Below are positions 228 through 61,871 of a stretch of 64,000 nucleotides of DNA, piece after piece. Origin of the DNA: a virus (lineage: Duplodnaviria; Heunggongvirae; Uroviricota; Caudoviricetes); the IMG/VR virus record IMGVR_UViG_3300048924_000203, positions 22,232-86,231 of that record; one strand, written 5' to 3'. Below the pieces are notes generated by a model. That model saw only the letters and a program-made list of their open reading frames with translations, searched no databases and had not been told where the DNA came from. Made by a program: the position numbers and the translations under genes. Positions within the stretch are counted from its first letter, which is position 1. Every line of letters starts with the position of its first letter.

Positions 228-478
228 GGACCAGGGCGAGCCGCCTCGTGTGGCATGAGACGGCGCAACGCTGGTTCTCGGCGACCGGGGCCCGCGGAAT
301 CTACTCGCTGTTCTGGTCTGGTGGGTGCTGGTGGCTGACCGGTAAGGGCCATGACGGGCTGTTGATGATGGCGCTCCCGCCGTTCGGTCAGCGGTTCGGC
401 GATCGTGATCAGGCGGAGCTGCACGCTGACTGGATCGAATGCCACGGCGCCGAGGGCGAAGTCAGCGGGGCCGGATGA
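224..478 (+). CDS. hypothetical protein (84 aa)
   Basis: ORF track; ATGA overlaps at both ends. Confidence 0.5.
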
Positions 479-1455
479 GCGGGAACGTCACGGCGACAGA
501 CCTTTTCGCTGGCGCCGGTGGATCATCGGAAGGCCTGAGGCAGGCGGGTATCCGCGTCGTCACTGCGGCGAACCACGACCCGATCGCCGTAGCCACCCAC
601 CGCGCCAACCATCCGGACACCGAGCACCGATGTGCTGACCTGTCCGAGACGGACTGGCGAACGTTCCCGCGGACGCAGGTGCTGTGGCTGAGCCCGTCGT
701 GTGTGTGGCATGCACGCTGTGGCGGCCGGAAGCGTCCGCCCGCCGATGTGGAGCGGATGCGCGCCGATGCCGGGGCGATCGACCGGGCCACCGCATTCGC
801 CGCGATCGAAGCTGCCGAGGTTCACCGGTACCCGCTCATTTTCGTGGAGAACGTCCCGGAGTTTCAGGCATGGACCTTGTATCGGTGGTGGCTGGACGGG
901 CTGCGGGCACTCGGCTATCACGTGCAGCCAATGGTGTTGGACGCCTACGACTTCGGTGAGGCGCAGCATCGGAAGCGTTGGTTCCTCGCAGCGACGTTCG
1001 ATGGTCTGCACATCGACCTCACCCCGCCGTACGTGCCGGTCCGGAACGCCGCGGACATCCTCGACGACCACGCGCTGGAGCCGGTGACCCGCCGGTTGTA
1101 CGTGTCTCCGCAGATCGACGCCATCGCAGAACGCGAGGTGCCGCACCTGGTGACCTACCGGCGCAACGCCAGACCGCACCGGACCGACCGGAGGCCGTTG
1201 GCCACGATCACAGCCGGCGGGAACCACCACGCCGTCGCCCTGGTCGACAGCCTCGGCCGGCAGTGGCACCGGCTGCTCACGGACCGGGAATGTGCACGCG
1301 CACAGGGCTTCCCGGACAGCTATGAGTTCGTCGGCACCAGAACACCGGTACCCGAGTTGCATGGCCCGGTGCGCCGCCAGATTGGTAATGCGGTGCCGGT
1401 GGGTATCGCCCGCTGGTTCGGCGAGCGCGCCATCGAAGCGTTGGGGGCGGCATGA
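475..1455 (+). CDS. DNA cytosine-5 methyltransferase
   Basis: Motifs I (DLFAGAGG), IV (SPSC), ENV, QHRKRWF and GNAVPV; start at MSGNV, which overlaps the upstream stop. Confidence 0.9.
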
Positions 1456-1598: not shown

Positions 1599-1627
1599 CG
1601 AACCGGCCCACAATCTTCGGAAATACA

Positions 1628-1710
1628 TTGCACTGCAAGTGGTTTCATCATAGGATGAGCTTGTTGGCAAGCGGAAACGAGTCCGCGAGCGAGACGGAAT
1701 GGAGTCCGAT
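1628..1710 (+). promoter_or_regulatory. Promoter-plus-leader repeat, copy 1: -35 TTGCAC (1628-1633), 17-nt spacer, -10 TAGGAT (1651-1656), conserved structured leader
   Basis: One of five homologous ~90-bp elements; the others are copies 2-5 at 20382, 26594, 31327 and 32703. Confidence 0.55.
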
Positions 1711-2259
1711 TTGAAGCCGATTCTCACCGTTGACCAGCGCTGGCTACTTCGGTCCGTCGGCGGCTGGACGATGCGCGACTGCATGATCAGCCCCGAAGGC
1801 GTCTCTCACCTGATGCAGTCCATGTATGGCAGCAGTGGACACCCGATCGACGGTGGCCCGGCATGGCTGGCCAGCGGATTCCAATGCCGGGGCCGCAAAG
1901 TGGTGTCGAAACAGCCGCCGGTCGTCACTGTGACGGATGTGCAGATCAACCGCTACGCCGCCCAATTGGATGCGCCGCTCAAGGCTGAGTTGGTTGAGTG
2001 CCAGCAGGCTGACCGCGCGGAGAACGACCGCGTGTGGAAGTGGTGCCGCTGCGGACGCGAAGCCGAATGTCTCAGGGCCAACGAGGGTGATCCGTTCTGG
2101 GGCAACAGGTATCACCCATCCGAGGCTGAGGTGCAGGAGCACTACGAGGAGTGCTGGCGGATCCGCGACTGGACGGATGACCTTCTCGACCGGGCGCTCG
2201 GATTCGAGATCGCCGGCGAACAGCTCGGCCAGTTGGAACTTTTCGAGGTAAGCGCATGA
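1711..2259 (+). CDS. hypothetical protein; first gene downstream of repeat copy 1 (alternative ATG start at 1699)
   Basis: ORF track 1699..2259; TTG at 1711 aligns with the second-ATG position of the other copies, 6 nt after GGAG. Confidence 0.55.
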   Translation: MKPILTVDQRWLLRSVGGWTMRDCMISPEGVSHLMQSMYGSSGHPIDGGPAWLASGFQCRGRKVVSKQPPVVTVTDVQINRYAAQLDAPLKAELVECQQADRAENDRVWKWCRCGREAECLRANEGDPFWGNRYHPSEAEVQEHYEECWRIRDWTDDLLDRALGFEIAGEQLGQLELFEVSA

Positions 2260-8862: not shown

Positions 8863-9233
8863 GCACCTGCAGCGACTACCCGTGGATCGAGGTGTACCCG
8901 GTCACCCGTCCATCCAAGGCCGACCTTGGTTGGACGCGCGCCGAATGCCAGCGCTGCGGCCAAGATTCATGCGACAACGCGGAGCCGTACACCGAGGACT
9001 GGACCCACGAGCACGCCAAGAAATGCCACCCCCGCTGGACAGTTCGGAAAGGGCGCTGCAAACCGTGTGCTGACAGCAAACCAGGAGCCTGCCTCAAAGC
9101 GTGGGTGATTACCGATTCCACCGGAGCAACCGTTGGATGCAGCGACGACTTTTACGACGCGATCACCTATGCCACTCGAAAGGCTGGCATCTGCCTGCAG
9201 AACGAACTCACCACACTGGGGGTCACATCCTGA
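8859..9233 (+). CDS. Cys-rich hypothetical protein
   Basis: ORF track; GTGA overlap. Confidence 0.5.
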   Translation: MSTCSDYPWIEVYPVTRPSKADLGWTRAECQRCGQDSCDNAEPYTEDWTHEHAKKCHPRWTVRKGRCKPCADSKPGACLKAWVITDSTGATVGCSDDFYDAITYATRKAGICLQNELTTLGVTS

Positions 9234-9598
9234 TGAACGCTGAAGCCCACAACGTGCTCACCGCTGCATTCGCTCACAGCTTGCAGCATGACGCCCGGCC
9301 GATGTCCACCGCGGGGGAGGCCGAGCACTTCACCAATGTCGCACTGTCTGCTCTCACCGCCGGCCACGCCGTCGTGAAACTGCCTGGACGGTGCGAGATC
9401 CCGATCAGCTGGGGCGGCGATTGCTTGGGAGCCTGGCAGGGGCCCGCGCTGAAGGACCCCGTCAGTGCGTGGCCGTCGCGAACCGGTGGCGAGCCGGAGA
9501 TCGCCCTGCCGGACGGCTCGTTCGTGAGCCTCCAAGATGCTCTCGACTTCGCAGGCGCGCTGTTGGCTGCTCTGAAAGCTGTGGAGTCTGTCCGATGA
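9233..9598 (+). CDS. hypothetical protein
   Basis: TGATG-overlap start inside ORF 9101..9598. Confidence 0.45.
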   Translation: MNAEAHNVLTAAFAHSLQHDARPMSTAGEAEHFTNVALSALTAGHAVVKLPGRCEIPISWGGDCLGAWQGPALKDPVSAWPSRTGGEPEIALPDGSFVSLQDALDFAGALLAALKAVESVR

Positions 9599-9762
9599 CC
9601 GGCCGCCACCGCATGTTCGATGCGAAACGCTGCGACGGGTGGATTGTGCACTGGGCCAAGGAAGTTGGCCACTTCATCAAGATTGGTCAGTTTCGGGCGT
9701 TCTTCCCCGGCGGATTCACGGTGCCCGTCATCATCCCCGGCGAACTTGGAGTTGACCGATGA
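9595..9762 (+). CDS. hypothetical small protein
   Basis: ATGA overlaps at both ends. Confidence 0.35.
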   Translation: MTGRHRMFDAKRCDGWIVHWAKEVGHFIKIGQFRAFFPGGFTVPVIIPGELGVDR

Positions 9763-10412
9763 CCGCTGAATCTCTCACTGCCCGCCCACCGATCCCGGCC
9801 ATGTGCGAGCACCGACCGACCACAGGTGGTGTCGTAATCCCCTGGGGCAATGTCCAACTGGCGGACGGCGGCTGCGACTTCCGAGGCCAGCACGAATCCC
9901 GTATCCAACGATGCTGGCTCGAGAACCGCTGCCAGATCTGCGGCGAGACGATGCCGGATCGGCCGATCGTTCTGTTCGGCGGGCCCAACCAGATCCGGCG
10001 CCTGCAGTTCGACGAGCCACCGATGCACCCGGCGTGCGCCGTGTACGCATCGCAGGCATGCCCGATGGTCGCTGGCCGGCAGAGTCACTACGCGGACCGT
10101 GCCACGGTCAGCGACGGGCCGCGGGCGGCGAAATGCCCCGAGCCTGGCTGTGACTGCGGAGGTTTCGTCCAGACCCCGGGACTCACGGCGGCACCCGGCG
10201 GCGACCCGGCGCACAACTGGTACGCGGTCTACGTGTCGGGCATCGCGCTCTGCGTCTCCGAGCATCGGCCCGACCGGATCCACTCCTGCATGGTCTCGCC
10301 GGGCCAGGTGTTGGCGATCCGGCACGTGTCGACGCCCGGTGTTGGCCGTGTGTGGAAACGCACCACGCTGGACCAGGCAGCCAGTAATAGCAAAGGAGCA
10401 CAGGGTGATTGA
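9759..10412 (+). CDS. Cys-rich hypothetical protein
   Basis: ORF track. Confidence 0.55.
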   Translation: MTAESLTARPPIPAMCEHRPTTGGVVIPWGNVQLADGGCDFRGQHESRIQRCWLENRCQICGETMPDRPIVLFGGPNQIRRLQFDEPPMHPACAVYASQACPMVAGRQSHYADRATVSDGPRAAKCPEPGCDCGGFVQTPGLTAAPGGDPAHNWYAVYVSGIALCVSEHRPDRIHSCMVSPGQVLAIRHVSTPGVGRVWKRTTLDQAASNSKGAQGD

Positions 10413-12848: not shown

Positions 12849-13344
12849 GAACAAGGACAGGGCGCGTAGAGCCGTTGACCTGAAAATCGCCGGGGCCACG
12901 TGGAAGCAAATCGCCGACGAACTCGGGATGGATTCAGAGTCCGGTCCCCGGCTGTTGGTGATGCGGTATTTCGAGAAGACCGCTAAAACGCAATTCGAGG
13001 AAATGCACCCGATCCTCCTCGAACGCTCCGAAGCGCTGTGGCGGAAAGCCTGGGCGAAGTTGAATGCCGTGCAGGCGAACGGGTCAATGGAAGACTGGGA
13101 CAAGGCCATGCGCCGATGCATCGACGTCCTCCAGAGCCTTGCTCGTATCAGCGGTTTGGGTAACGGCCCAGCGATTCAGGTGAACATCACCACCCCTGAG
13201 GACGTAAAGAAGCTCCGCGATGAATTCATGGAATTGCGCGGAATCAGTAATGCCATCGACGCGGAAATCATCGAGGATGAAGAAATGGTCGGAGGCGCTG
13301 AAATCGTCACGGTAAACGACCCGAGTGACGCACCTGTTGCATAG
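12823..13344 (+). CDS. helix-turn-helix DNA-binding protein (terminase-small-subunit-like or sigma region-4-like)
   Basis: Ribosome binding site AAAGGAGAA; N-terminal helix-turn-helix KIAGATWKQIADELGM; AAA/GAA-rich codons unlike neighbours. Confidence 0.55.
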   Translation: MSKKTQSIENKDRARRAVDLKIAGATWKQIADELGMDSESGPRLLVMRYFEKTAKTQFEEMHPILLERSEALWRKAWAKLNAVQANGSMEDWDKAMRRCIDVLQSLARISGLGNGPAIQVNITTPEDVKKLRDEFMELRGISNAIDAEIIEDEEMVGGAEIVTVNDPSDAPVA

Positions 13345-18020: not shown

Positions 18021-18127
18021 TGCGCAGTTGGGGTAGTTGAAACCCGGCCCGCTTCCAGCGGGAAGCCTCCAGTTCGTTACTGGGACTGCGCTCAAACAGT
18101 AGGGCCTTGGAAGGGGAAGGAGCCCCA

Positions 18128-19459
18128 TTGTTCGCCGGCACGATCGAAGTCGAAGTCCGGGCAATGGTTCAGGAACACGTCCGGTCATGGGGCGTCAACG
18201 ACGTCTACATCGGCTGCAGCGGCAACTTCAGCATCGAACGGTTCCTCGGCCCGCTCGGGCACCGGATGCACGGCAACGACGTGTCGATCTACACGTGCCA
18301 GCTCGGCAAGTACCTGTCCGGCCAGTTCGTCGACTACACCATCCGCCCCGAGTCCGCGGAGGAGCTGGCGTGGCTCGAACCGTTCATGGAGACGGACGCC
18401 GACCGGATCGCGACCCTGATGCTCGGCACACGGTTCCTGCAGTTCGTCGGCAAGACCGGCGCGTACTTCGACCGGATGCTCGACGGCTTCCAGCGGCAAT
18501 TCCCGGAGATGCACGCCGCGACCAAGGCCAAGGTGGAGGCCGTCGAGACCCGGTTGGCGTCGTTTCACGTCATGGACGTGCGCGACTGGCTCCGCAACAT
18601 CGTCCCCCCAGAGGGCGCCGTGGCCAGTTTTCCACCCTTCGATATTGGTGGGTACGAGACCATGTGGAAGCCCCTCGACCAGCATTTCGAGTGGGCCGAA
18701 CCGGACTACGACATCCTGGACGAGAAGGGTATCCACGACACCCTTGAGCTGATCATGGACCGGGACCACTGGATCCTCGCGTCGAACCACCGCAGGCCGG
18801 AGTGGGAGGAGCGGCTGGTCGGCGTCGTGCAGACGTCGCCGCGGCGCCGGCCGAACTACGTGTATGCGTCGACGGAGAAGACGCGGATCGTGAAGCCCCG
18901 CACAGTGCTTGAGCCGGTCAAGGTCCCACGATTGGGTAGGGGCGACCGGATCGGCGACACCCTGAAGCTCGCGCCTCTCACTCTGCCGCAGTTCAACATG
19001 CTGCGGGCGCAGTACCTGAATCCGAAGATCCGCACCGCCGCGCCATCGGCGTCGTTCGCGGTCCTGTCGGAGGGTCGGATCATCGGCGCCGTCGCCGTGC
19101 TGCCCGGCAAGTTCGATCCGGATGAGATCTACCTGATGTCGGACTTCGCGGTTGCGTCGTCGGACTACTCGAAGTTGTCGAAACTCGTTGTCATGGCTGC
19201 TTGTTCGAAAGAATTGCAGCATTTGATGCAGAACGCGATGTCGCGGCCGATCCGGAAGGTTGCGACAACCGCGTTCACGCAGCGCCCGGTCTCGATGAAG
19301 TACCGCGGGCTGCTCGATCTGTCGAAGCGATCCGATTCCACGGATCCCGAGTTCGCGTACGAGCTGCAGTACGGCGGCACGGTCGGCCGCTGGACCTTGA
19401 CCGAGGCTGTGGCGGAGTGGCGTAAGCGTGGCTGGGACACGGTGAAAGGCGAAGAGTGA
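18128..19459 (+). CDS. hypothetical protein (443 aa); possibly a divergent gamma-class methyltransferase-like N-terminal domain
   Basis: TTG start after GGGAAGGAGCCC; YIGCSGNFS and FPPF motifs spaced as in Dam; GTGA-coupled to the ParB-like gene. Confidence 0.55.
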   Translation: MFAGTIEVEVRAMVQEHVRSWGVNDVYIGCSGNFSIERFLGPLGHRMHGNDVSIYTCQLGKYLSGQFVDYTIRPESAEELAWLEPFMETDADRIATLMLGTRFLQFVGKTGAYFDRMLDGFQRQFPEMHAATKAKVEAVETRLASFHVMDVRDWLRNIVPPEGAVASFPPFDIGGYETMWKPLDQHFEWAEPDYDILDEKGIHDTLELIMDRDHWILASNHRRPEWEERLVGVVQTSPRRRPNYVYASTEKTRIVKPRTVLEPVKVPRLGRGDRIGDTLKLAPLTLPQFNMLRAQYLNPKIRTAAPSASFAVLSEGRIIGAVAVLPGKFDPDEIYLMSDFAVASSDYSKLSKLVVMAACSKELQHLMQNAMSRPIRKVATTAFTQRPVSMKYRGLLDLSKRSDSTDPEFAYELQYGGTVGRWTLTEAVAEWRKRGWDTVKGEE

Positions 19460-20367
19460 AAAGGCATATCGAGGTACTGAAGCTCGCTGACCTCAAGGCG
19501 CAGCACATCAATGCTCGCTACATGAAGTCGGATATGTTCCGGCAGCTGGTCGCGAACCTGCAGAAGGATGGCACACTCACCTCCGTGCCGCTGGTCCGGC
19601 CGGACGGTGACGGTCACCGCATACTCTCCGGACACCACCGCATCGCCGCCGCCATCGAAGCGGGCATCACTGAGTCCGAGTGCTTGGTGCTGGACGAGGA
19701 AATCTCGCGGCAGCAGGAAGTCGCACTCGTCATCTCGCACAACAGCATCGACGGTGAGGACGACCCCGCCACGCTGAAAGCGATGTACGCGGAACTCGAC
19801 GACACGGAGTGGATGGACTACTCCGGTCTGGACGATCGCACCCTCGAACTCCTGGACGAGGTGTCGACGGAAGGGCTGTCGGAGGCGAATCTGTCGTTCT
19901 CCACGATCAACCTGGTGTTCCTGCCGCACGAGAAGGAAGCCGCCGAAGAGGCGCTGTTCGAGGCGACGAAGCAGTACGGCAGCGGCGATAAGTGGCTGGC
20001 TGGGATCGCCCAGTACGAGCCAACTTTGAACGCGCTGGAGACGGTCAAGTCGTCGTACGCCATCGGAAATATCGCCACCGCGCTCGGGATTGTGCTCGCG
20101 GTTTTCGAGAAGAATCTGACGCAGCTGGCTGACGGCTGGGTCGACAAGTCCGGGAAGCCGCGCCGGAAGAAGCCGGTCCCGATGGAGACCGTTTTCGGTA
20201 CGCGGCTGGTGGACAGCACTGTCGCGGCGAAAGTCCTTGCGGCGGTGAAGCAAGCGGAGAAGGCCGGCGATGTGCCCGATGGTGACCCTTGGGCGTTCAT
20301 CGGGTACCTCGCGGACACCTACCTCCTGTCACTACAGGCGGACGACGAGAACGAAAAGGCGTCCTAA
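19456..20367 (+). CDS. ParB-like nuclease-domain protein
   Basis: ParB N-terminal box RILSGHHRIAAA. Confidence 0.7.
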   Translation: MKRHIEVLKLADLKAQHINARYMKSDMFRQLVANLQKDGTLTSVPLVRPDGDGHRILSGHHRIAAAIEAGITESECLVLDEEISRQQEVALVISHNSIDGEDDPATLKAMYAELDDTEWMDYSGLDDRTLELLDEVSTEGLSEANLSFSTINLVFLPHEKEAAEEALFEATKQYGSGDKWLAGIAQYEPTLNALETVKSSYAIGNIATALGIVLAVFEKNLTQLADGWVDKSGKPRRKKPVPMETVFGTRLVDSTVAAKVLAAVKQAEKAGDVPDGDPWAFIGYLADTYLLSLQADDENEKAS

Positions 20368-20381
20368 TTTCACGAAATACA

Positions 20382-20464
20382 TTGCATAGCAAGCTGTTTC
20401 ATCATAGGATGAAGGAGTAAGCAAGCGGAAATGAGTCCGCGAGCCTGACGGAATGGAGTCCGAA
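20382..20464 (+). promoter_or_regulatory. Promoter-plus-leader repeat, copy 2: TTGCAT, 17-nt spacer, TAGGAT
   Basis: Homologous to copies 1, 3, 4 and 5. Confidence 0.55.
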
Positions 20465-20740
20465 ATGCCCCGCACCCGCACCTCACGCCCGGCGGTGGAC
20501 CACGCCGCGCGTCAGCAGGTTATTGAGCGTTTCGATGCGCAGCTCGACGCGCACGTCGCACCCCACGACAGCGCCTACCTCGACGGCGTGTACATGCTGA
20601 CCGCCCGCGGCACAGACGGCGAAGTCAAGATGACCGCCCGCAACCTTTCGATCGTTGACACAACCCGCCGGCTCGCGCTGATCTCGGTGACCAACGGTGC
20701 GACCGACGTCACCCTGAGCGTGCAGGAGTCCGCCCGATGA
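20465..20740 (+). CDS. hypothetical protein (alternative start at 20453, MESEM)
   Basis: ORF track 20453..20740; the second ATG lies 6 nt after GGAG. Confidence 0.55.
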   Translation: MPRTRTSRPAVDHAARQQVIERFDAQLDAHVAPHDSAYLDGVYMLTARGTDGEVKMTARNLSIVDTTRRLALISVTNGATDVTLSVQESAR

Positions 20741-24719: not shown

Positions 24720-25000
24720 TGGACGGCGCGATGAACGTCATGCAGCACGCCAACCTGCTGGACCGATCCACCGTCGTGGCGAAGCGCAACGGCTTCATTG
24801 AAAGCAAGGAGTACGGCGACGTCGTCGGCCTCGTCCGCCTGGACGTGAACGCGGCCGGTAAGCCGATTTGGCGCGCGCAGGCCGGCGACGTCGGATCGTT
24901 CGACTTCACCCGCGACGGCGCCATTCAACGCGTGATCGACCTGCACAACATGCAGGAGAAAGCGCGACTGTTCGATCTGATGCCGAAGGCGGAACGATGA
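24719..25000 (+). CDS. hypothetical protein
   Basis: ORF track. Confidence 0.45.
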   Translation: MDGAMNVMQHANLLDRSTVVAKRNGFIESKEYGDVVGLVRLDVNAAGKPIWRAQAGDVGSFDFTRDGAIQRVIDLHNMQEKARLFDLMPKAER

Positions 25001-25338
25001 GCGCCGAAGCCTGCGACGATTTCCCCTTCGAGCCGAGCGACTCGCACCCTGCACTCGTCGCGCCACCGCTGTTGCCTCGGAACAACTTCGACCTCGACGC
25101 GCGCAACGACACCGCTCTGGGCGCGAAGCTGCTCGCTGAAATCCTCATGGACGACGAGTGGCACCACGTCGATGACGTTGTCGACGAACTCATGGACGAA
25201 TGCGGACTCACGCTGCGCGGTGCCCGTTCCCTACTCAAGTCCGTCCGATCGCACGGTGACCTGCGGCGTGACGAACGCGGCTGGTTGCGACTCACAACCC
25301 GCTGGCAGGACTGGAACCCCGAGGCGGCTGAGCAGTGA
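24997..25338 (+). CDS. acidic hypothetical protein
   Basis: ATGA-overlap start. Confidence 0.45.
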   Translation: MSAEACDDFPFEPSDSHPALVAPPLLPRNNFDLDARNDTALGAKLLAEILMDDEWHHVDDVVDELMDECGLTLRGARSLLKSVRSHGDLRRDERGWLRLTTRWQDWNPEAAEQ

Positions 25339-26556: not shown

Positions 26557-26593
26557 CGGCTGGCACCAATGCCGCTATGAGCATCGAAACCCA

Positions 26594-26677
26594 TTGCATA
26601 ACAGTGTGTTTCATCATAGGATGATGTTGTCAGCCAGTCGGGATCGAGCCCGTAGGCGAGAGGGAATGGAGTCCCAC
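26594..26677 (+). promoter_or_regulatory. Promoter-plus-leader repeat, copy 3: TTGCAT, 17-nt spacer, TAGGAT; leader stem carries compensatory changes
   Basis: Inner stem CGGG..CCCG with loop AUCGAG replaces GCGGA..UCCGC. Confidence 0.55.
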
Positions 26678-27163
26678 ATGTCCGCAATGATCAGCACCGA
26701 GCAGTCCTCCGACCAGAAGCTGTGCGCAGGGTGCGGCAAGGCGTTCCGCGGCGACCGCGGTTTGAAGTCGCATCAGAATCACCGGAACGCGGCGCCGGAG
26801 TGCCTGCCGCACAACATCATTGAGCCAGATGCCGCGCCGGTCGAGCCGGTGATCGAGGTGGCCGCGGTGCGCGCCGCTCCGGTCTCGCCTGTGGCCGAGG
26901 CCGGCGACCGCGACGAGTTGATCCGAACGGCCCACACGTACGCGTTCGTGCCTGAGTTCCACACGCTGCTTGTCAAGGTCGACGGCCGTGACAAGTGGGC
27001 GATCCGGATGCTCGCCGAGGACGCCTTCGCTATCGCCCGGACGGCCGACAACAGGGTGCTGGTGCGGCGGACGAAGCATGAGAACAGCACCGAGACGACG
27101 GTGACGGATTACTACTGGAACGACGGCCTGCGGGTCCGCATGACCGAGCGGAATGCCGTCTAG
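26678..27163 (+). CDS. protein with C2H2-type zinc finger (alternative start at 26666)
   Basis: CAGCGKAFRGDRGLKSHQNH fits Cx2Cx12Hx3H. Confidence 0.55.
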   Translation: MSAMISTEQSSDQKLCAGCGKAFRGDRGLKSHQNHRNAAPECLPHNIIEPDAAPVEPVIEVAAVRAAPVSPVAEAGDRDELIRTAHTYAFVPEFHTLLVKVDGRDKWAIRMLAEDAFAIARTADNRVLVRRTKHENSTETTVTDYYWNDGLRVRMTERNAV

Positions 27164-27192: not shown

Positions 27193-27271
27193 GGGTGTGC
27201 CTACCGTTTCGGTCGGTAGCGGGGCACGGAACCGCCGGAAGAGTCCGGTGGTCGTAGGGAAGGAGCCCTCA

Positions 27272-28303
27272 GTGGCACACGAATTGGACATCACCGACGG
27301 CGTCGCGTCGTTCGCATCCGCCAGGGAGCACGCGTGGCACCGACTCGGCACCGTCCTCCCGGACGCGATGACGGCCGAACAGGCCTTGGCCGCAGCACAT
27401 TTGGCGGGCTGGAACGTCCGCAAGAAGCCCCTGTACGTGGAGGGTGACCCGGTGCTCGCCGAGGACGGTGTCACCCTCGGTGGACCGGTGGAGGTGCCCG
27501 GGAAGTTCGCGACGGTCCGCACCAACCCCATCAACCAGAAGGAGGACGTGCTGGGCGTGGTGGGGGAGCAGTACACGATCATCCAGAACGAAGAAAACGC
27601 AGACATCCTGAACGCGATCGTCGACGAGTCCGGCGCCCACTTCGAGACCGGCGCGGCCCTGTTCGGCGGCCGGCAGACGTTCCTGTCGATGAAGCTGCCC
27701 CGCGCGATCGAGCTGCGCGGCGCGGCGGGCGTCGACGTGACGGAGCTGTACCTGATCGCGCGTAACTCGCACGACGGGTCGTCCGCGTTCCAACTGATGG
27801 TCAGCCCGGTCCGACCGGTGTGCATGAACACCCTGGCCGCGGCGATCCGAGAAGCCAAGTCTCAGTTTGCGATCCGGCACACCACGAACGCCAGGCAGAA
27901 CATCCAGTTGGCCCGCGAGGCACTGGGGATGACGTGGAAGTACGTCGACGTGTTCGAGAAGGAGTTGCAGAAGATGATCCACCGCGAGGTGTCCCGCTCG
28001 GACGCGACGATCACGCTGCGGAAAGTGCTCAAGTTCGACGAGAAGGCGCTGACGGAGCGGTCGGAGAAGAACCAGAACGCCCGCATCGGTGAGATCCTGA
28101 AACTGTGGACCAGCTCGGACACCCTGAACGGATTCCACGGATCCAGCTACGGCCTGTACCAGGCGGTGGCGGAGTGGGCTGACCACTACTCGCCGACGTG
28201 GGCCGGTCAGGGCCAGGCGGAGATGCAGCGTGCTGAGCGGATCGCGAAGGGCGGCGAGATGCAGCGCATCAAGACGGAAACGTTCACACTGCTGACGGTG
28301 TAA
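27272..28303 (+). CDS. DUF932 (TIGR03299-like) phage/plasmid protein
   Basis: GTG start after GGGAAGGAGCCC; motifs AWHRLG and NSHDGSSA. Confidence 0.75.
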   Translation: MAHELDITDGVASFASAREHAWHRLGTVLPDAMTAEQALAAAHLAGWNVRKKPLYVEGDPVLAEDGVTLGGPVEVPGKFATVRTNPINQKEDVLGVVGEQYTIIQNEENADILNAIVDESGAHFETGAALFGGRQTFLSMKLPRAIELRGAAGVDVTELYLIARNSHDGSSAFQLMVSPVRPVCMNTLAAAIREAKSQFAIRHTTNARQNIQLAREALGMTWKYVDVFEKELQKMIHREVSRSDATITLRKVLKFDEKALTERSEKNQNARIGEILKLWTSSDTLNGFHGSSYGLYQAVAEWADHYSPTWAGQGQAEMQRAERIAKGGEMQRIKTETFTLLTV

Positions 28304-28312
28304 CCCCCACTC

Positions 28313-28404: not shown

Positions 28405-28431
28405 GGAACCCCAACTACCCGTTGGGGTTCC
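28405..28431 (+). promoter_or_regulatory. perfect 11-bp hairpin GGAACCCCAAC-taccc-GTTGGGGTTCC abutting the ribosome binding site of the XRE gene
   Basis: Inverted repeat 20 nt upstream of the ATG at 28452. Confidence 0.4.
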
Positions 28432-28451: not shown

Positions 28452-28760
28452 ATGAGCGAGTACCAGTGGGGCCAGGCAGCACGGATCCGCTGCCTGCGCG
28501 ACTACCTCGGCCTGTCCGTCAACGAGCTCGCCGCCGCGCTGAACGTGTCGACACGCTCCTACCAGAGTTTCGAGTCCGGCCGCGCCGCCATCCCCGCCGG
28601 CGTCATGGCCGACGTCAACGCACTGGTCCACCGCCTCGACGTCCTGGCCGCCGACTACTCGTCGCGCGATGAACTGTCCATCGCAGACATGTCCGCGTTC
28701 GAGCTGCGCGCCGCCGGCATCGCCGCCGCCGCCAACCAGGAACTCCAAATCAGCCAGTGA
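28452..28760 (+). CDS. XRE-family helix-turn-helix transcriptional regulator
   Basis: LRDYLGLSVNELAAALNVSTRSYQSFESGR; ribosome binding site TAGGAGGAA. Confidence 0.75.
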   Translation: MSEYQWGQAARIRCLRDYLGLSVNELAAALNVSTRSYQSFESGRAAIPAGVMADVNALVHRLDVLAADYSSRDELSIADMSAFELRAAGIAAAANQELQISQ

Positions 28761-28784: not shown

Positions 28785-28907
28785 ATGGATGACGACGACC
28801 GCGTGGCACTGCGCATCCTCGCCGTGGAGATGCTCATGGCCCTGGTGCTCCTCGCGCTGGGCTTCGGCCTCTCGGCACTCATTGTGTGGCTATTCCTGAC
28901 GAACTGA
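28785..28907 (+). CDS. small membrane protein (40 aa)
   Basis: Single hydrophobic helix; ribosome binding site GAAGGTGA. Confidence 0.3.
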   Translation: MDDDDRVALRILAVEMLMALVLLALGFGLSALIVWLFLTN

Positions 28908-28958
28908 CCCCGCGTCACACGTAGGCGCTGCACTGGCCGCGGCTACACATCTCTACCC

Positions 28959-29165
28959 ATGAGCACCCACGAGTCAGCACAAGCGACTGACCGCCGGTGG
29001 GCCACAGAATCCGAAACCGCCGAACACGCCCGCGTCAGCAACAACACCATCCGACGCTGGCGAGACCGCGGGCTGATCACCGGATACAGGGTCGGCCGCA
29101 CCGTGCGCTACGACCTCTGCGAGATCGACGAACTGCTCATCTCAGGCGCCGGCGTCGCCCCATGA
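28959..29165 (+). CDS. excisionase/MerR-like helix-turn-helix DNA-binding protein (candidate small terminase partner)
   Basis: Helix-turn-helix segment SETAEHARVSNNTIRRWRDRGLITGYRVGRTVRY; ATGA-coupled to terminase. Confidence 0.6.
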   Translation: MSTHESAQATDRRWATESETAEHARVSNNTIRRWRDRGLITGYRVGRTVRYDLCEIDELLISGAGVAP

Positions 29166-30773: not shown

Positions 30774-30785
30774 GCCCCTTGCATA
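30774..30785 (+). promoter_or_regulatory. GCCCCTTGCATA 12-mer (site C)
   Basis: Third exact copy, directly after the terminase stop. Confidence 0.4.
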
Positions 30786-30829
30786 ACGTTCGTAGCGTGC
30801 CTCCGGATCGTTGGGAACCAGATGCTCAC

Positions 30830-31300: not shown

Positions 31301-31326
31301 AGCATGGGCGCGGTCAATGAAATCAA

Positions 31327-31409
31327 TTGCCCTGCAACAGATTTCGGCATAGGATGAATTGGTAGGCAAGCGGAAACAAGTCCGCATGTTCAACGGAAGA
31401 AAGTCCGAA
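31327..31409 (+). promoter_or_regulatory. Promoter-plus-leader repeat, copy 4: TTGCCC, 17-nt spacer, TAGGAT
   Basis: Homologous leader GCAAGCGGAAACAAGTCCGC. Confidence 0.5.
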
Positions 31410-31508
31410 ATGCCCACAGCACCACATACCCACTTACGAGTGGCGTTCAACGCGCGACATTCGGGACCCACCGCAATTCAGGCGGGCGATGAACCGGAAC
31501 GGTGGTGA
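31410..31508 (+). CDS. leader-encoded small ORF (32 aa)
   Basis: ATG at the conserved repeat position. Confidence 0.3.
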   Translation: MPTAPHTHLRVAFNARHSGPTAIQAGDEPERW

Positions 31509-32545: not shown

Positions 32546-32702
32546 TGTATCTCGGTCGACAGGCCTCTGTCCTGGCCTTCCGTTACCGAGTAACGGAAGT
32601 TCGTCGCGCCTGCTGCATAGGCTTCCCCACGTGGACAGGACGGGCTACGCCGCGCAGGCTCCGGATTACACCGAAAAACATGCGTTGAACTGCATAAACA
32701 TC

Positions 32703-32785
32703 TTGATTAGCACATCTAATTGTCATAGGATGAAGGAGTAAGCAAGCGGAACTGAGTCCGCGAGCCTGACGGAATGGAGTCCGAA
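32703..32785 (+). promoter_or_regulatory. Promoter-plus-leader repeat, copy 5: TTGATT, 17-nt spacer, TAGGAT
   Basis: Leader nearly identical to copy 2. Confidence 0.55.
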
Positions 32786-33106
32786 ATGCCCACCAGCAAC
32801 CACCGACGCGCCTCGGCGCACGCCATCCTCGCCGCCGGCATCGTCATCGGCGCCGCTCTCGGCATCCCCACCGGTGCCATCGTCTCGGCCACATCCGCCA
32901 TCGCCGCCCCGACCGTGACCGAGGACAGCCCCGCGTGGGACTGCATCTTCGACGGGAACCGCATCTGCGGGCCCGGCAACCCTCAGGGCGTGGCCGCCGG
33001 CTGCTACAACGACCGGGGCGCGCTGGTCGCGCCGTGGCCCTGCCATCTGGTCGTCAACCCCGACGGCAGCGCCGACGTCTACACCGGCTCGGCGGTCACC
33101 CGATGA
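32786..33106 (+). CDS. secreted/membrane-anchored Cys-rich small protein (alternative start at 32774)
   Basis: N-terminal hydrophobic signal-like segment; 5 Cys. Confidence 0.55.
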   Translation: MPTSNHRRASAHAILAAGIVIGAALGIPTGAIVSATSAIAAPTVTEDSPAWDCIFDGNRICGPGNPQGVAAGCYNDRGALVAPWPCHLVVNPDGSADVYTGSAVTR

Positions 33107-42089: not shown

Positions 42090-42134
42090 AACCTCACGGG
42101 GTATGGCCTTGGAACCTGGTAGGTGCGTAGCGCG

Positions 42135-60431: not shown

Positions 60432-61817
60432 ATGGATTTCGTGCCTACGGTCTTTCACGACGATGCACCTCCCGGCGTCTCGGCCAGCGAGCTGGCCAAG
60501 GTCAACGCGGGCGTCGTTGAGGGCATCACTAAAGCTGAGGCGGCGAAGTCGATCGCCGACGCTGCAGCGGTCGCTCCTCAAATGATTGCGGCGACCTGGG
60601 CCGAAACCACCGACAAGCAGGCTGCCCCCGTACGACCGGGCCTTGTAGCTATCGGTGACTCATTCATCGGCCTCACGTACATCACGACTCCGTGGAATGG
60701 GTCCAGCCTGAGCCGTACTGCGGTCTATTACAGCGGTGGGTACCTCGCCACGGCGATGATCTGGACACGTCAGCCGTGCACCTTCATTCCGAAGGGCGTA
60801 TCGGGAGAATCTGCAGCCACCGGGCTGACGCGATTCGACGCTGACGTTGTGGCGAAGCATCCACACGTGGTGTTGATCAACTACGGATCAAACGACATGG
60901 CCCTGAGTCGCACAGCTGCGGATACGTTCGCGGATATGCGGGCCATGTACGCAAAGGCGTGGAGGATTGGGGCGAAAGTCATCGCGACGACGTGCCCGCC
61001 TCGCAACTCGTTCACTTCGACCCAGATGAAAGAAGCCTGCAAGCTCAACACGCTGATGCGGAATTACGCCGCGACCAATCCACAGGACTTTTACCTGGTC
61101 GATCTGTGGCGTGCTCTGGCTGATCCGGCCACCGGAAACTACATCGCGGCCTACACAGCCGATGGTATTCATCCGAACGCCGCTGGTGCATGGCGGCTGG
61201 CCAAGGAGTTCGACAGCGCATTCGGGCGGTTCTTCATGAACCCAACCACCAACCTGGCCCGCTGCAACATCAACGATGACAACCTGCTGGTAAACCCGAT
61301 GTTCATCACCTCAGGCGGCAGCCTCCTGACCGCTGGAATAACTGGCACCGTGGGATCCGGTTGGGCAGCGTTTTCAGACGACGCTGCAACGGTGGTGGCC
61401 AACGTATCGCTAGTCGCTCGCGCCGACGGCCTGGGAAACTGGCAGCAGGTGAATGTCACATCCGATCCGACACCAACGAAGTGCGCTCATTTCCTACAAA
61501 GCATCGCGACAGGATTCGCCGCTGGCGATCTGGTGCAGGCGTGGGTCGAGTTCGAGACCGACTCCGCAGGCTGGACCAACGGATCGGTAGAGATGTTCCT
61601 GATGTGTCAGGACGGGAGCGGGAATCTGCTGCATTTCACTCGAAGCCTCAGCCCCGACACGTCCGTACTTGGGGTTCGCCCAGAGTCAGGGGTGCAGGCC
61701 ACTCCGCCGGTCGTCGTGCCGGCTGGTACCACCCAGATCACGTGCCGACTCAGTAAGGGTGGCACCGGCACCGTGCGATTCGGGCGAGTGTCCATCCGGA
61801 AACTGCCTACGTCGTAG
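60432..61817 (+). CDS. SGNH/GDSL hydrolase with C-terminal beta-sandwich domain
   Basis: GDS block AIGDSF; GSND; DGIHPN; AT-richer codons than neighbours. Confidence 0.75.
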   Translation: MDFVPTVFHDDAPPGVSASELAKVNAGVVEGITKAEAAKSIADAAAVAPQMIAATWAETTDKQAAPVRPGLVAIGDSFIGLTYITTPWNGSSLSRTAVYYSGGYLATAMIWTRQPCTFIPKGVSGESAATGLTRFDADVVAKHPHVVLINYGSNDMALSRTAADTFADMRAMYAKAWRIGAKVIATTCPPRNSFTSTQMKEACKLNTLMRNYAATNPQDFYLVDLWRALADPATGNYIAAYTADGIHPNAAGAWRLAKEFDSAFGRFFMNPTTNLARCNINDDNLLVNPMFITSGGSLLTAGITGTVGSGWAAFSDDAATVVANVSLVARADGLGNWQQVNVTSDPTPTKCAHFLQSIATGFAAGDLVQAWVEFETDSAGWTNGSVEMFLMCQDGSGNLLHFTRSLSPDTSVLGVRPESGVQATPPVVVPAGTTQITCRLSKGGTGTVRFGRVSIRKLPTS

Positions 61818-61871
61818 CCGGTTTCAATCTGCAGCCTGGCCAGAGCACCCGGCGTCGTTACCGTCACCCGC

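What the first reader, a model, noticed from the sequence alone, without database searches (positions are those of the whole stretch)
1628..1713. Five-copy promoter-plus-structured-leader repeat spliced onto the start of five operons
About 90-bp homologous elements at 1628, 20382, 26594, 31327 and 32703. Each has a -35-like hexamer (TTGCAT, TTGCAC, TTGCCC or TTGATT), exactly 17 nt of spacer, then -10 TAGGAT inside CATAGGATGA. A conserved leader follows (GCAAGCGGAAAYGAGTCCGCGAGC..GACGGAATGGAGTCCGAAATG) and runs into the first codons (MESEM, MESHM). Copy 3 changes both arms of the leader stem (GCGGA/UCCGC becomes CGGG/CCCG) while keeping the 6-nt loop and the outer GC pairs. That is covariation, and it argues for a selected RNA hairpin between the transcription start and a GGAG ribosome binding site. 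It resembles the start-associated sequences of mycobacteriophage Cluster K but is longer and includes a promoter.
Basis: seen in the sequence. Interest (0 to 1): 0.8.

Follow-up and report, generated by a model that had tools for sequence, protein, structure and literature searches.

The report
Repeated promoter, RNA-hairpin control cassette
A mycobacteriophage carries five copies of a promoter followed by two small RNA hairpins, the second holding the ribosome-binding site; together with an Aca2-like regulator gene in one of the operons, this looks like the DNA-plus-RNA repression circuit recently described for anti-CRISPR operons.

Summary
Five ~95-nt cassettes lie on the + strand at 1620-1713, 20374-20467, 26586-26680, 31319-31412 and 32695-32788. 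Each has TTGCAT-like/17 nt/TAGGAT and then a structured leader that ends at a start codon.

- There are two leader hairpins, not one. Both share the core GGA-[AnnRAG]-UCC, and the second holds the GGAG Shine-Dalgarno in its loop, 2 nt before the start codon. The real start is therefore the second ATG/TTG, not "MESEM".
- A 27-bp inverted repeat, GRAAY-N17-RTTYC, spans the -35 and the spacer.
- The gene at 28452-28760, inside the copy-3 unit, encodes an Aca2/YdiL-like HTH protein. It has its own perfect inverted repeat 20 nt upstream.

Cluster W mycobacteriophages and six metagenomic relatives carry the same cassette. Across 28 leaders both hairpins show clear compensatory change (96-98% paired).

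Published work shows that Aca2 dimers repress their operons by binding a promoter inverted repeat and two 5'-UTR hairpins. The best reading is therefore an Aca2-type dual transcriptional and translational control cassette that governs five operons. The main rival is a purely cis-acting cassette like the Cluster K ESAS/SAS. Binding and promoter activity are inferred, not shown.

Verdict: new member of a known kind, moderately interesting.

The parts
1620..1713 (+). Cassette copy 1 (the finding). Inverted repeat 1620-1646; -35 TTGCAC 1628-1633; -10 TAGGAT 1651-1656; hairpin 1 GCGGA-AACGAG-TCCGC 1671-1686 (outer GC pairs 1667/1668 with 1689/1690); hairpin 2 CGGA-ATGGAG-TCCG 1695-1708 with GGAG in the loop; start TTG 1711-1713 of a 182-aa phrog_12222 protein.
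20374..20467 (+). Cassette copy 2. Inverted repeat 20374-20400; -35 TTGCAT 20382-20387; -10 20405-20410; hairpin 1 20425-20440; hairpin 2 20449-20462; ATG 20465 (91-aa protein of unknown function). It follows the ParB-like gene.
26586..26680 (+). Cassette copy 3. Inverted repeat 26586-26612; -35 26594-26599; -10 26617-26622; hairpin 1 CGGG-ATCGAG-CCCG 26639-26652; hairpin 2 GGGA-ATGGAG-TCCC 26662-26675; ATG 26678 (C2H2 zinc-finger-like protein, an ortholog of Taptic gp75, which also follows a cassette).
31319..31412 (+). Cassette copy 4. Inverted repeat 31319-31345; -35 TTGCCC 31327-31332; -10 31350-31355; hairpin 1 31370-31385; hairpin 2 CGGA-AGAAAG-TCCG 31394-31407; ATG 31410 of a 32-aa ORF (to 31508). 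The SPFH/band-7 gene at 31566-32495 follows.
32695..32788 (+). Cassette copy 5. The inverted repeat is degenerate; -35 TTGATT 32703-32708; -10 32726-32731; hairpin 1 32746-32761; hairpin 2 32770-32783; ATG 32786 (106-aa protein, PHROG families of unknown function). The stretch from the -10 through the leader to ATGCCC is 98% identical to copy 2.
27201..27274 (+). Leader without the promoter, in front of the DUF932 gene. Extra hairpin CTACCG-TTTCGGT-CGGTAG 27201-27219; hairpin 1 CCGCCGGA-AGAG-TCCGGTGG 27232-27251; hairpin 2 AGGG-AAGGAG-CCCT 27256-27269; start GTG 27272. Orthologous leaders in Taptic (L001 30040-30130), L107, L204 and L205 have different but complementary stems.
18113..18130 (+). 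Lone second-type hairpin GGGG-AAGGAG-CCCC plus start TTG 18128, in front of the DAM-like/GNAT-like gene just after tRNA-Gly. The Taptic ortholog reads CGGG-AAGGAG-CCCG.
28405..28431 (+). Perfect inverted repeat GGAACCCCAAC-TACCC-GTTGGGGTTCC, of the same GRAAY-N17-RTTYC type as in the cassettes. It ends 20 nt before the ATG of the Aca2-like gene and is a candidate autoregulatory site.
28452..28760 (+). Aca2/YdiL-like helix-turn-helix gene (102 aa; ortholog of Taptic gp1). It lies downstream of copy 3 and upstream of the large terminase gene (ORF 28997-30766). It is the candidate trans-acting regulator of the cassettes.
61799..61825 (+). A further GRAAY-N17-RTTYC inverted repeat (GAAACTGCCTACGTCGTAGCCGGTTTC) in the virion-gene region, about 47 nt before the gene at 61872. 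It is of the same type as the cassette repeat; its function was not examined.

Best explanation
Each copy is a self-contained expression-control cassette of the kind described for Aca2-regulated operons.

DNA level. A SigA-type promoter (TTGCAT / 17 nt / TAGGAT) is overlapped by a 27-bp inverted repeat, GRAAY-N17-RTTYC. This repeat is the operator for a dimeric helix-turn-helix repressor.

RNA level. Transcription should start about 7 nt after the -10. That gives a ~50-nt 5' UTR folding into two short hairpins about 23 nt apart, with a shared core GGA-[A n n R A G]-UCC. The second hairpin carries the Shine-Dalgarno GGAG in its loop and ends 1-4 nt before the start codon (2 nt in the window's five copies).

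Proposed regulator and dynamics. The regulator is the Aca2/YdiL-like protein encoded at 28452-28760, inside the copy-3 unit, with its own inverted repeat 20 nt upstream. By analogy with Aca2, the promoters fire on infection. The free hairpin keeps the SD accessible in GC-rich mRNA, so the first cistron is translated strongly. As the regulator accumulates it binds the promoter repeat, shutting off transcription, and binds the two UTR hairpins, blocking the ribosome. All five operons and its own gene are then repressed together.

Shown here (computationally): the anatomy, the conservation, the RNA pairing, and the family and fold of the protein.
Inferred: promoter activity, the transcription start, and that this protein binds these DNA and RNA sites.
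For: Anatomy and non-randomness.

Distribution. The same cassette occurs 5 times (plus one leader-only copy) in every Cluster W phage examined. It also occurs in metagenomic relatives L107, L108 and L203-L206.

RNA pairing:
- Hairpin 1 is 96% paired, with 4 of 5 pairs changed on both sides. Covariation score is 0.52 against 0.19 in shuffles (0 of 500), and slid controls are at most 0.15.
- Hairpin 2 is 98.1% paired. The outer pair is seen as CG, GC, UA and AU, the inner pair as AU and GC. Score is 0.558 against 0.185 (0 of 500).
- Across the 28 leaders tabulated there are at least 11 hairpin-1 stems and 9 hairpin-2 stems, while both hairpins keep the same GGA/UCC core and A..AG loop. The shared core is not needed for SD display in hairpin 1 and suggests one dimeric binder.

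SD display. Predicted P(GGAG unpaired) is 0.46-0.998 in wild type, against a median of 0.005-0.01 for shuffled UTRs in four copies (0.44 for copy 4).

Inverted repeat. GRAAY-N17-RTTYC occurs 6 times against 0.44 expected (0 of 100 shuffles). The sites are copies 1-4, one just upstream of the regulator gene, and one in the late region. The fixed 17-nt spacing fits a protein site.

Regulator:
- A profile of 19 homologs hits four Aca2 PDB entries at E = 8e-7 to 1e-6; the next hit is at 2.6e-3.
- The AlphaFold model has pLDDT 93.9.
- The six best Foldseek PDB matches are Aca2 over its full length (TMq 0.62-0.68), followed by SO3848 and YdiL. Other HTH proteins align over the HTH only.
- It is the only such ORF in the window and in Taptic and is conserved in all relatives.

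Mechanism precedent (PMC13551039, read). The Aca2 dimer binds an inverted repeat overlapping the promoter and two conserved 5'-UTR hairpins, blocking the RBS. There is an actinobacterial RNA motif. [quoted passage not shown] RNA motifs also occur between genes within operons.
Against: - No binding or transcription data exist for this phage or for Cluster W.
- The window protein scores 20.6 bits on Pfam Aca2_YdiL, below the 23.8 cutoff.
- All loci that carry both the protein and the cassette belong to one phage lineage, and four were fetched through the protein. Their co-occurrence is therefore not independent evidence.
- The published actino-motif could not be obtained, so identity with it is untested. 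Rfam has no match.
- The arms of the inverted repeat differ between copies within one phage (L205), with only the outer pentamers constant. They show modest covariation (0.21 against 0.14, 2 of 500), which would also fit a terminator-like hairpin.
- The full elements in L107 and L108 lack a clear repeat, and copy 5 has a degenerate one.
- The RNA hairpin core (GGA..UCC) does not resemble the DNA half-site (GAAAC).
- None of the cassette-headed genes has a known anti-defence annotation.
- The promoter hexamers are weak by sigma-70 criteria.
Confidence: 0.55

Rival explanations
1. Purely cis-acting promoter-leader cassette, the Cluster W counterpart of Cluster K ESAS+SAS. On this reading a constitutive or host-regulated SigA promoter drives the unit. 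A 5'-proximal hairpin protects the mRNA end from RNase E/J. A second hairpin holds the SD open for strong independent initiation on the first cistron. The upstream palindrome is a terminator-like hairpin (A-tract, stem, U-tract) that insulates the unit from upstream transcription. No dedicated RNA-binding protein is involved.
For: - The layout matches Adephagia ESAS/SAS: -35/-10, an inverted repeat, then an SD-containing GGG..CCC motif 3-4 nt before the ATG (PMC3203893; PMC11373665).
- Hairpin 2 strongly raises predicted SD accessibility, and disrupting either arm lowers it about 1.9- to 75-fold.
- Hairpin 1 would begin about 4-8 nt from the predicted 5' end.
- The palindrome interior varies but stays largely complementary.
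- L107 has a separate strong hairpin just upstream of its promoter.
- Leader-only copies sit after intergenic gaps, where de novo initiation is needed.
Against: - It does not explain why hairpin 1 keeps the same GGA-[A..AG]-UCC core as hairpin 2 in most of the 28 leaders.
- It does not explain why the palindrome keeps a fixed 17-nt spacing between conserved pentamers.
- It does not explain why a perfect copy of the palindrome sits directly in front of an Aca2-like gene.
- The terminator scan does not call any of the palindromes.
- The centre of the cassette palindromes leaves a loop of only 1-3 nt.
Confidence: 0.28
2. The hairpins are bound by a trans-factor other than the Aca2-like protein. 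Candidates are another phage protein (the C2H2 zinc-finger protein at 26678-27163, or the Taptic gp3-like protein at 30779-31300), a host RNA-binding protein, or the 30S subunit using hairpin 1 as a standby SD-like site. The promoter inverted repeat may be bound by the same factor or a different one.
For: - Two hairpins with a shared core suggest a dimeric or repeated binder.
- Both loops resemble the extended SD complement GAAAGGAG (my own knowledge of the mycobacterial 16S 3' end, not tested here).
- The C2H2 protein and the gp3-like protein are conserved between the window and Taptic.
- No phage protein is shared with SAS-bearing Cluster K, which would fit a host factor if the SAS and this hairpin are the same device.
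Against: - No RNA-binding domain was found in the proteins scanned.
- The Aca2 family is the only one present with a demonstrated two-hairpin RNA-binding precedent.
Confidence: 0.1
3. Processive antitermination site, like lambda nut/boxB or HK022 put. Promoter-proximal RNA hairpins would modify RNA polymerase so that it reads through downstream terminators.
For: One or two small hairpins lie immediately downstream of repeated promoters. All genes are co-oriented in long units.
Against: - The second hairpin is locked to the SD and the start codon, and the leader also occurs without a promoter.
- No excess of intrinsic terminators lies downstream (10 found against 8.9 expected, and 4 against 11.9).
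- No boxA-like element or N-like protein was identified.
- There is no Rfam match.
Confidence: 0.03
4. The repeats act at the DNA level only, as double-stranded palindromic protein sites or as recombination or mobile-element boundaries. The apparent RNA structure would be incidental.
For: - The hairpins are inverted repeats in DNA too.
- Copies 2 and 5 are 98% identical from the -10 into the second codon, which suggests recent gene conversion.
- The cassettes head different genes in different phages.
Against: - Different complementary stems occur within one genome (CGGA/UCCG, GGGA/UCCC, GGGG/CCCC, AGGG/CCCU). A single DNA-binding specificity cannot read them all, but base pairing explains them.
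- Orientation and distance to start codons are strict.
- The SD lies in the loop.
Confidence: 0.03

Closest known systems
Aca2-regulated acr-aca operons (phage ZF40 acrIF8-aca2; 'proteo-' and 'actino-' RNA motifs; Birkholz et al. 2024 as summarised in Feussner et al. 2026, PMC13551039)
   Same: - An HTH protein with the Aca2 fold is encoded in a regulated unit.
- An inverted repeat overlaps the core promoter.
- Two conserved hairpins lie in the 5' UTR straight after the predicted TSS, with the RBS involved and the start codon at a fixed position.
[quoted passage not shown]
- RNA motifs also occur inside operons without a promoter.
   Different: - No anti-CRISPR or other known anti-defence gene has been identified downstream.
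- The regulator gene lies next to the large terminase gene of an apparently lytic mycobacteriophage.
- There are five operons plus an extra inverted repeat in the virion-gene region.
- The protein is shorter (102 aa against 115-125) and is below the Pfam DUF1870/Aca2_YdiL cutoff.
- Identity of the RNA motif with the published actino-motif could not be checked.
- Binding is untested.
Cluster K mycobacteriophage ESAS + SAS (Pope et al. 2011, PMC3203893; Freeman et al. 2024, PMC11373665)
   Same: - It is a repeated intergenic cassette in one orientation in the non-structural arm.
- It has a predicted SigA-like -35/-10 with 17-18 nt spacing plus an imperfect inverted repeat.
- A conserved SD-containing motif with complementary ends (GGGATAGGAGCCC against GGGAATGGAGTCCC / GGGAAGGAGCCC) lies a few nt before the start codon.
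- A subset of sites lack the promoter part.
- The cassettes head different gene families in different phages.
   Different: - There is no sequence homology beyond the SD motif. Only one window site is within 2 mismatches of the SAS.
- The inverted repeat spans the -35 and spacer with a 1-nt centre, instead of flanking both hexamers with a 12-14 nt gap.
- An extra hairpin 1 is present.
- Covariation here supports RNA pairing, which was not seen for the ESAS repeats; SAS arm pairing was not examined.
- No Aca2-like ORF was found in the Adephagia region examined, 20-59.6 kb.
Translational operator hairpins of phages (MS2/PP7 coat-protein operator) and CsrA-type GGA-loop sites
   Same: A small hairpin that includes the RBS region serves as a protein-binding site. 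The two sites per mRNA are reminiscent of dimeric CsrA targets with GGA motifs.
   Different: No coat-protein or CsrA homolog was found among the proteins scanned. The comparison rests on my own knowledge and on the abstract of PMC13443453. Here GGA is mostly in the stem, not the loop.
Lambda nut (boxB) and HK022 put promoter-proximal RNA hairpins
   Same: One or two hairpins are transcribed immediately downstream of repeated phage promoters.
   Different: The hairpins are tied to the SD and start codon and also occur without a promoter. There is no boxA, and no terminator context was detected.

Membership tests
Aca2-type DNA+RNA control cassette | An Aca2/YdiL (DUF1870) family HTH protein is encoded in or next to the regulated operon | tested here: met
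   The profile of 19 homologs hits four Aca2 PDB entries at E about 8e-7; the next hit is at 2.6e-3. The AF2 model (pLDDT 93.9) has Aca2 as its six best PDB matches over full length, followed by SO3848 and YdiL. Caveat: the Pfam PF08965 score of 20.6 is below the 23.8 cutoff. One homolog (P0025) carries PF08965.
Aca2-type DNA+RNA control cassette | An inverted repeat overlaps the core promoter | tested here: met
   GRAAY-N17-RTTYC spans the -35 and the spacer in copies 1-4. There are 6 sites against 0.44 expected, including one 20 nt upstream of the regulator gene. The promoter itself is only predicted.
Aca2-type DNA+RNA control cassette | [quoted passage not shown] | tested here: met
   Both hairpins covary. 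The SD lies in loop 2. The stem ends 1-4 nt before the start codon, 2 nt in the window's five copies. The TSS is inferred, not measured.
Aca2-type DNA+RNA control cassette | The protein binds the DNA repeat and the RNA hairpins and represses transcription and translation | not testable with these tools
   This needs EMSA and reporter assays.
Aca2-type DNA+RNA control cassette | The RNA matches the published proteo- or actino-motif covariance model | not testable with these tools
   Birkholz 2024 is not held and no supplement is held. Rfam 15 has no match.
Aca2-type DNA+RNA control cassette | The regulated genes are anti-CRISPR or anti-defence genes | tested here: inconclusive
   The downstream genes are phrog_12222, a 91-aa unknown, a C2H2 protein, DUF932, a 32-aa ORF plus an SPFH protein, and a small protein of unknown function. 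None is annotated as anti-defence. DNA methylase, DAM-like/GNAT-like and ParB-like genes lie nearby.
Cluster K start-associated sequence (SAS) | 13-nt GGGATAGGAGCCC with at most 2 mismatches | tested here: not met
   Only 18113-18125 qualifies. The five cassette hairpins have 3 or more mismatches. Matches at 3 mismatches or fewer are at chance level, 19 against 19.8.
Cluster K start-associated sequence (SAS) | Located 3-9 nt upstream of start codons, in one orientation, in the non-structural region | tested here: met
   All seven window sites are on the + strand. The stem ends 1-2 nt before the start codon, with GGAG 5-6 nt from it.
Cluster K extended SAS (ESAS) | A ~46-50 bp motif with SigA-like -35/-10 at 17-18 bp spacing, and 15-17 bp imperfect inverted repeats separated by 12-14 bp | tested here: not met
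   The hexamer spacing matches. The repeat geometry (13+13 bp arms, 1-nt centre over the -35) and the sequence differ. The leader model gives only two weak hits in Adephagia.
Intrinsic terminator (reading of the palindrome) | A GC-rich stem-loop followed by a U-tract | tested here: inconclusive
   None is called by the terminator scan. The arms are 83% complementary with modest covariation, and GTTTC plus a T-rich tail follows. The loop is only 1-3 nt in the cassettes, and the fixed 17-nt spacing is not expected of terminators.
Lambda nut / HK022 put antitermination RNAs | A promoter-proximal hairpin or hairpins acting on RNAP to read through downstream terminators; boxA/boxB or put stem architecture | tested here: not met
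   There is no Rfam hit and no terminator enrichment. The hairpins are tied to the RBS and also occur without a promoter.

The most novel reading that the evidence does not exclude
The SD-in-loop hairpin of this lineage and the Cluster K start-associated sequence are the same device: a small RNA hairpin that displays the ribosome-binding site and is closed by a phage HTH regulator. On this reading, Aca2-type dual DNA/RNA repression is not limited to anti-CRISPR loci. In actinobacteriophages it would be a general timing switch coordinating sets of early or anti-defence operons, and even the terminase unit. That would give the first mechanistic handle on the SAS/ESAS puzzle, open since 2011, and would mark the cassette-headed genes as candidate mycobacterial anti-defence genes.
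Probability: 0.15. Interest if true: 0.75.

Novelty: new member of a known kind. Interest (0 to 1): 0.5.

Why it matters
If the reading is right, a mycobacteriophage lineage uses an Aca2-like protein to shut down five operons at both the transcriptional and the translational level.

- It extends a mechanism so far characterised mainly in proteobacterial anti-CRISPR loci to lytic phages of Mycobacterium.
- It supplies a ready-made set of orthogonal promoter and UTR parts for mycobacterial genetics.
- It flags the first genes of each cassette (phrog_12222, the C2H2 protein, DUF932, the small ORFs) as candidates for early or anti-defence functions relevant to phage therapy.
- The covariation data are also, to my knowledge, the first structural evidence that an SAS-like 'GGG..GGAG..CCC' motif works as an RNA hairpin. 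This bears on the unexplained SAS/ESAS repeats of Cluster K phages.

Tried and rejected
- Single-sequence folding: z-scores of the leaders are mostly unremarkable, so structure had to be argued from covariation.
- Rfam, at gathering threshold on the whole window and at permissive threshold on copy 2: nothing relevant.
- First pattern scan of IMG/VR (CATAGGATGA..CGG..CCG): 64 single hits, all chance by nhmmer.
- Two-hairpin pattern in IMG/VR: 7 chance hits.
- Promoter-palindrome pattern in IMG/VR, GTDB genomes and JGI metagenomes: zero hits or unrelated ones.
- ParB-based loci L075 and L076: relatives at 57% identity without the element.
- MAFFT and CM alignments mis-register hairpin 2 when the loop is 7 nt. 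I replaced them with fixed-width windows. These windows were chosen knowing the structure, which biases the paired percentage upward; the slid controls partly address this.
- My first in-silico arm mutants were off by one or created an anti-SD and were redone. The 'swap arms' variant is not neutral because UCC placed upstream can pair with the SD.
- With the window and Cluster W only, the palindrome showed no covariation, and I first read it as purely sequence-conserved. With more lineages it shows modest covariation, so operator versus hairpin is left open.
- Shared proteins between Adephagia and the window or Taptic: none.
- PDB sequence search of the gp3-like and C2H2 proteins: uninformative.
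- The Birkholz 2024 paper and supplements could not be retrieved.
- Searches were input or script errors.
Full report

Yes. The five sites were read directly and aligned. They share a ~95-nt element on the + strand, always in an intergenic gap. CATAGGATGA occurs exactly five times, and none of 100 shuffles reached the observed count. Repeat finding recovers the same five sites.

The -35-like hexamers are TTGCAC, TTGCAT, TTGCAT, TTGCCC and TTGATT. The spacer is 17 nt and the -10 is TAGGAT in every copy. nhmmer and a covariance model run with filters off find only these five full copies in 64 kb. They also find one leader without a promoter (27230-27277) and one isolated second hairpin (18113-18126).

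A strict sigma-70 scan calls none of the five a promoter. The hexamers fit only the looser mycobacterial TANNNT -10, which I state from my own knowledge. Promoter function is therefore an inference from position and conservation.

**2.

- *Two hairpins.* Hairpin 1 is GCGGA-N6-UCCGC. Hairpin 2 is CGGA-AUGGAG-UCCG. The GGAG Shine-Dalgarno lies in the loop of hairpin 2, and the stem ends 2 nt before the start codon. Copy 3 changes both hairpins compensatorily, to CGGG/CCCG and GGGA/UCCC.
- *Start codon.* The ATG inside the loop is missing in copy 4 (loop AGAAAG) and in all Cluster W copies (loop AAGGAG). The conserved start is therefore the downstream ATG/TTG, not 'MESEM'.
- *Inverted repeat.* The element begins 8 nt upstream of the -35, with an imperfect inverted repeat GAAAnnnnTTGCA-n-TGCAAnnnnTTTC that covers the -35 and most of the spacer.
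- *Recent exchange.* Copies 2 and 5 are 98% identical from the -10 through ATGCCC, although their upstream halves differ. This points to recent gene conversion.

**3. Where the window comes from**

All genes run rightward. The nearest relatives are Cluster W mycobacteriophages of the genus Northamptonvirus (Taptic, Jeon, Argie, harman and others). Nucleotide matches cover only about 10% of each segment compared, but synteny at protein level is clear.

The window's own contig is a 108,881-nt JGI metagenome contig.

Genes identified in the window:
- a C5 methylase at 439-1455;
- tRNA-Gly;
- a DAM-like/GNAT-like gene and a ParB-like gene;
- a C2H2 protein, DUF932, an XRE-type HTH and the large terminase in the unit headed by copy 3;
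- an SPFH protein after copy 4;
- virion genes from about 44 kb onward.

**4. Related copies elsewhere**

Each Cluster W genome has five full cassettes plus one leader-only copy, clustered in the 6.5 kb before the terminase. The Taptic genome announcement does not mention them (PMC5356062).

Pattern scans of IMG/VR, GTDB genomes and JGI metagenomes for the promoter part found nothing. A two-hairpin pattern in metagenomes gave two true relatives, L107 and L108. Contigs fetched through homologs of the HTH protein gave four more, L203-L206, with 13 further leaders.

The cassettes head different genes in different phages. The exception is the C2H2 gene, where copy 3 corresponds to Taptic copy Te. 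The DUF932 leader at window 27201-27274 has counterparts ahead of the DUF932 genes of L107, L204 and L205. A homologous leader in Taptic (Tf) precedes gp73.

**5. RNA structure test**

| Feature | Alignment | Cells paired | Pairs changed on both sides | Covariation score (shuffled) | Shuffles reaching observed |
|---|---|---|---|---|---|
| Hairpin 1 | 15 distinct sequences | 96% | 4 of 5 | 0.52 (0.19) | 0 of 500 |
| Hairpin 2 | 13 distinct sequences | 98.1% | 2 of 4 | 0.558 (0.185) | 0 of 500 |

For hairpin 1, sliding the partner by 1-3 columns gives scores of at most 0.15. For hairpin 2, the outer pair occurs as CG, GC, UA and AU, and the inner pair as AU and GC.

I chose the alignment windows knowing the structure, which inflates the paired percentage. 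The model-based alignment gave the same picture for hairpin 1.

A table of 28 leaders shows at least 11 different hairpin-1 stems and 9 different hairpin-2 stems. Several differ within one genome. This argues for base pairing rather than for one double-stranded DNA specificity.

Both hairpins keep the same core, GGA-[A n n R A G]-UCC. Hairpin 1 has no need of an SD, so the shared core suggests one binder that recognises two sites about 23 nt apart.

In thermodynamic models the SD of the wild-type leaders is unpaired with probability 0.46-0.998. The median for shuffled UTRs is 0.005-0.01 (0.44 for copy 4). Destroying either arm lowers the probability about 1.9- to 75-fold. These figures assume a TSS 7 nt after the -10.

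**6. The inverted repeat**

With the window and Cluster W alone the repeat is 83% complementary but shows no covariation beyond shuffles. With more lineages it shows modest covariation: 7 pairs with double changes against 3.9 expected, and a score of 0.21 against 0.14 (2 of 500). Copies within one phage (L205) differ in the interior of the arms and keep only GAAAC...GTTTC.

The pattern GRAAY-N17-RTTYC occurs six times in the window against 0.44 expected (0 of 100 shuffles). The sites are copies 1-4, a perfect 11-bp-arm repeat at 28405-28431, and 61799-61825 in the virion-gene region.

The constant 17-nt spacing favours a protein-binding site. The complementary, variable interior keeps a terminator-like hairpin possible. 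I leave this open.

**7. The candidate regulator**

The repeat at 28405-28431 ends 20 nt before the ATG of a 102-aa HTH gene (28452-28760; ortholog of Taptic gp1).

- Its best PDB sequence matches are four Aca2 entries.
- A profile of 19 homologs hits them at E about 8e-7, with the next protein at 2.6e-3. The alignment runs through the recognition helix: RSYQNFESGRAAIP against RSWQYWESGRSAVP.
- The AlphaFold model (pLDDT 93.9) has Aca2 as its six best Foldseek matches over the whole length (TMq 0.62-0.68). SO3848 and YdiL of the same fold family follow. Other HTH proteins align over the HTH only.
- The Pfam Aca2_YdiL score of the window protein is just below threshold, 20.6 against 23.8.
- It is the only such ORF in the window and in Taptic. 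None was found in the part of Cluster K phage Adephagia that I examined.

**8. Comparison with what is known**

*(a) Aca2.* According to Feussner et al. 2026 (PMC13551039), who summarise Birkholz et al. 2024:
[quoted passage not shown] - RNA motifs exist for Proteobacteria and for Actinobacteria.
- In Aca operons generally, the DNA motif overlaps the promoter, the RNA motif starts right after the TSS, and the start codon position is conserved.
- One Aca can serve several neighbouring operons, and RNA motifs also occur between genes inside operons.

Every architectural point is matched here. What I could not test is binding, identity with the published actino-motif (paper and models not held), and whether the regulated genes are anti-defence genes.

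*(b) Cluster K ESAS/SAS.* The ESAS is a predicted SigA-like promoter with an inverted repeat. The SAS, GGGATAGGAGCCC, lies 3-9 nt before the start codon. The function of both is still unknown (PMC3203893, PMC11373665, PMC12699233).

Adephagia sequences show the same order of parts. By the published criterion, however, the window has only one SAS-like site. The repeat geometry differs, and there is no shared protein. This is an analogue and possibly a mechanistic cousin, not a member.

**9. Verdict**

The cassette is real, conserved, and contains two RNA hairpins under selection.

The best-supported mechanism (confidence about 0.55) is Aca2-type dual control. The Aca2-like protein would bind the promoter repeat and the two UTR hairpins of five operons, and the repeat before its own gene. 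This would give a burst of expression followed by coordinated shut-off.

The main rival (about 0.28) is a purely cis-acting terminator-promoter-leader cassette that stabilises the mRNA and displays the SD. The two are not exclusive, because SD display by free RNA is part of both.

It is a new member of a known kind, and possibly already covered by the published 'actino-motif'. Interest is moderate, for three reasons. It brings this circuit into lytic mycobacteriophages. It nominates candidate anti-defence genes. It provides the first covariation evidence that an SAS-like motif is an RNA hairpin.

Noticed in passing
window 18022-18130; L001 21205-21320: tRNA-Gly(tcc) is followed within about 20 nt by the SD-in-loop hairpin and the DAM-like/GNAT-like gene. 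The window gene starts with TTG (18128). At the aligned position Taptic has ATC, so the Taptic start is either non-canonical or mis-placed. The Taptic RefSeq annotation starts the gene inside the tRNA (21259).
   Followed up: partly
L001 (Taptic) 24820-25071, 28000-28311 and 28812-29024: The annotated ORFs gp88 and gp76 lie over cassette copies Tc and Te (promoter plus leader) and are probably spurious. The annotated GTG start of gp79 lies within the leader of copy Td, 27 nt upstream of the conserved ATG.
   Followed up: partly
window 28997-30766 versus 45018-47033: The large terminase gene is separated from the portal gene by about 14 kb. In Taptic this interval is about 1.4 kb. The insert carries cassettes 4 and 5, an SPFH/band-7 gene, many small ORFs and a BCS1-like AAA ATPase (42123-43700).
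   Followed up: partly
window 31410-31508: Cassette 4 drives a 32-aa ORF (MPTAPHTHLRVAFNARHSGPTAIQAGDEPERW), not the SPFH gene directly. The SPFH gene has its own GAAGGAG SD at 31566. Copies 2, 4 and 5 all begin ATGCCC, so the repeat extends into the second codon.
   Followed up: no
window 61799-61825: A GAAAC-N17-GTTTC inverted repeat of the cassette type lies in the virion-gene region, about 47 nt before the gene at 61872. It has no promoter or leader hairpins. It may be a further operator or a terminator.
   Followed up: no
window 45687-45763 / 50545-50621 and 50836-50918 / 51711-51793: Direct repeats of 77-83 nt at 81% identity lie within and between the portal gene, the MuF/protease fusion gene and the following gene. 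This suggests internal duplication of a protein segment.
   Followed up: no
L107 (QIRE01000192.1), minus strand, about 13207-13245: A strong hairpin, GGTTTGGCGGACAC-CGAC-GTGTCCGCCAAACC followed by TGTTGT, lies immediately upstream of the cassette promoter in this relative. That cassette lacks the overlapping inverted repeat. Insulation and operator functions may be separable.
   Followed up: partly
L203 8776-8823 (minus strand): The DUF932-gene leader, identical to window 27230-27277, is on the strand opposite to the called DUF932 gene (8917-9852, +) in this Logan contig. This is probably an assembly artefact or a local inversion.
   Followed up: no
window 439-1455, 18128-19459 and 19456-20367: A C5 cytosine methylase, a DAM-like/GNAT-like protein and a ParB-like nuclease-domain protein lie just upstream of cassettes 1 and 2. 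This gene set is typical of anti-restriction regions and may fit an anti-defence role for the neighbourhood.
   Followed up: no
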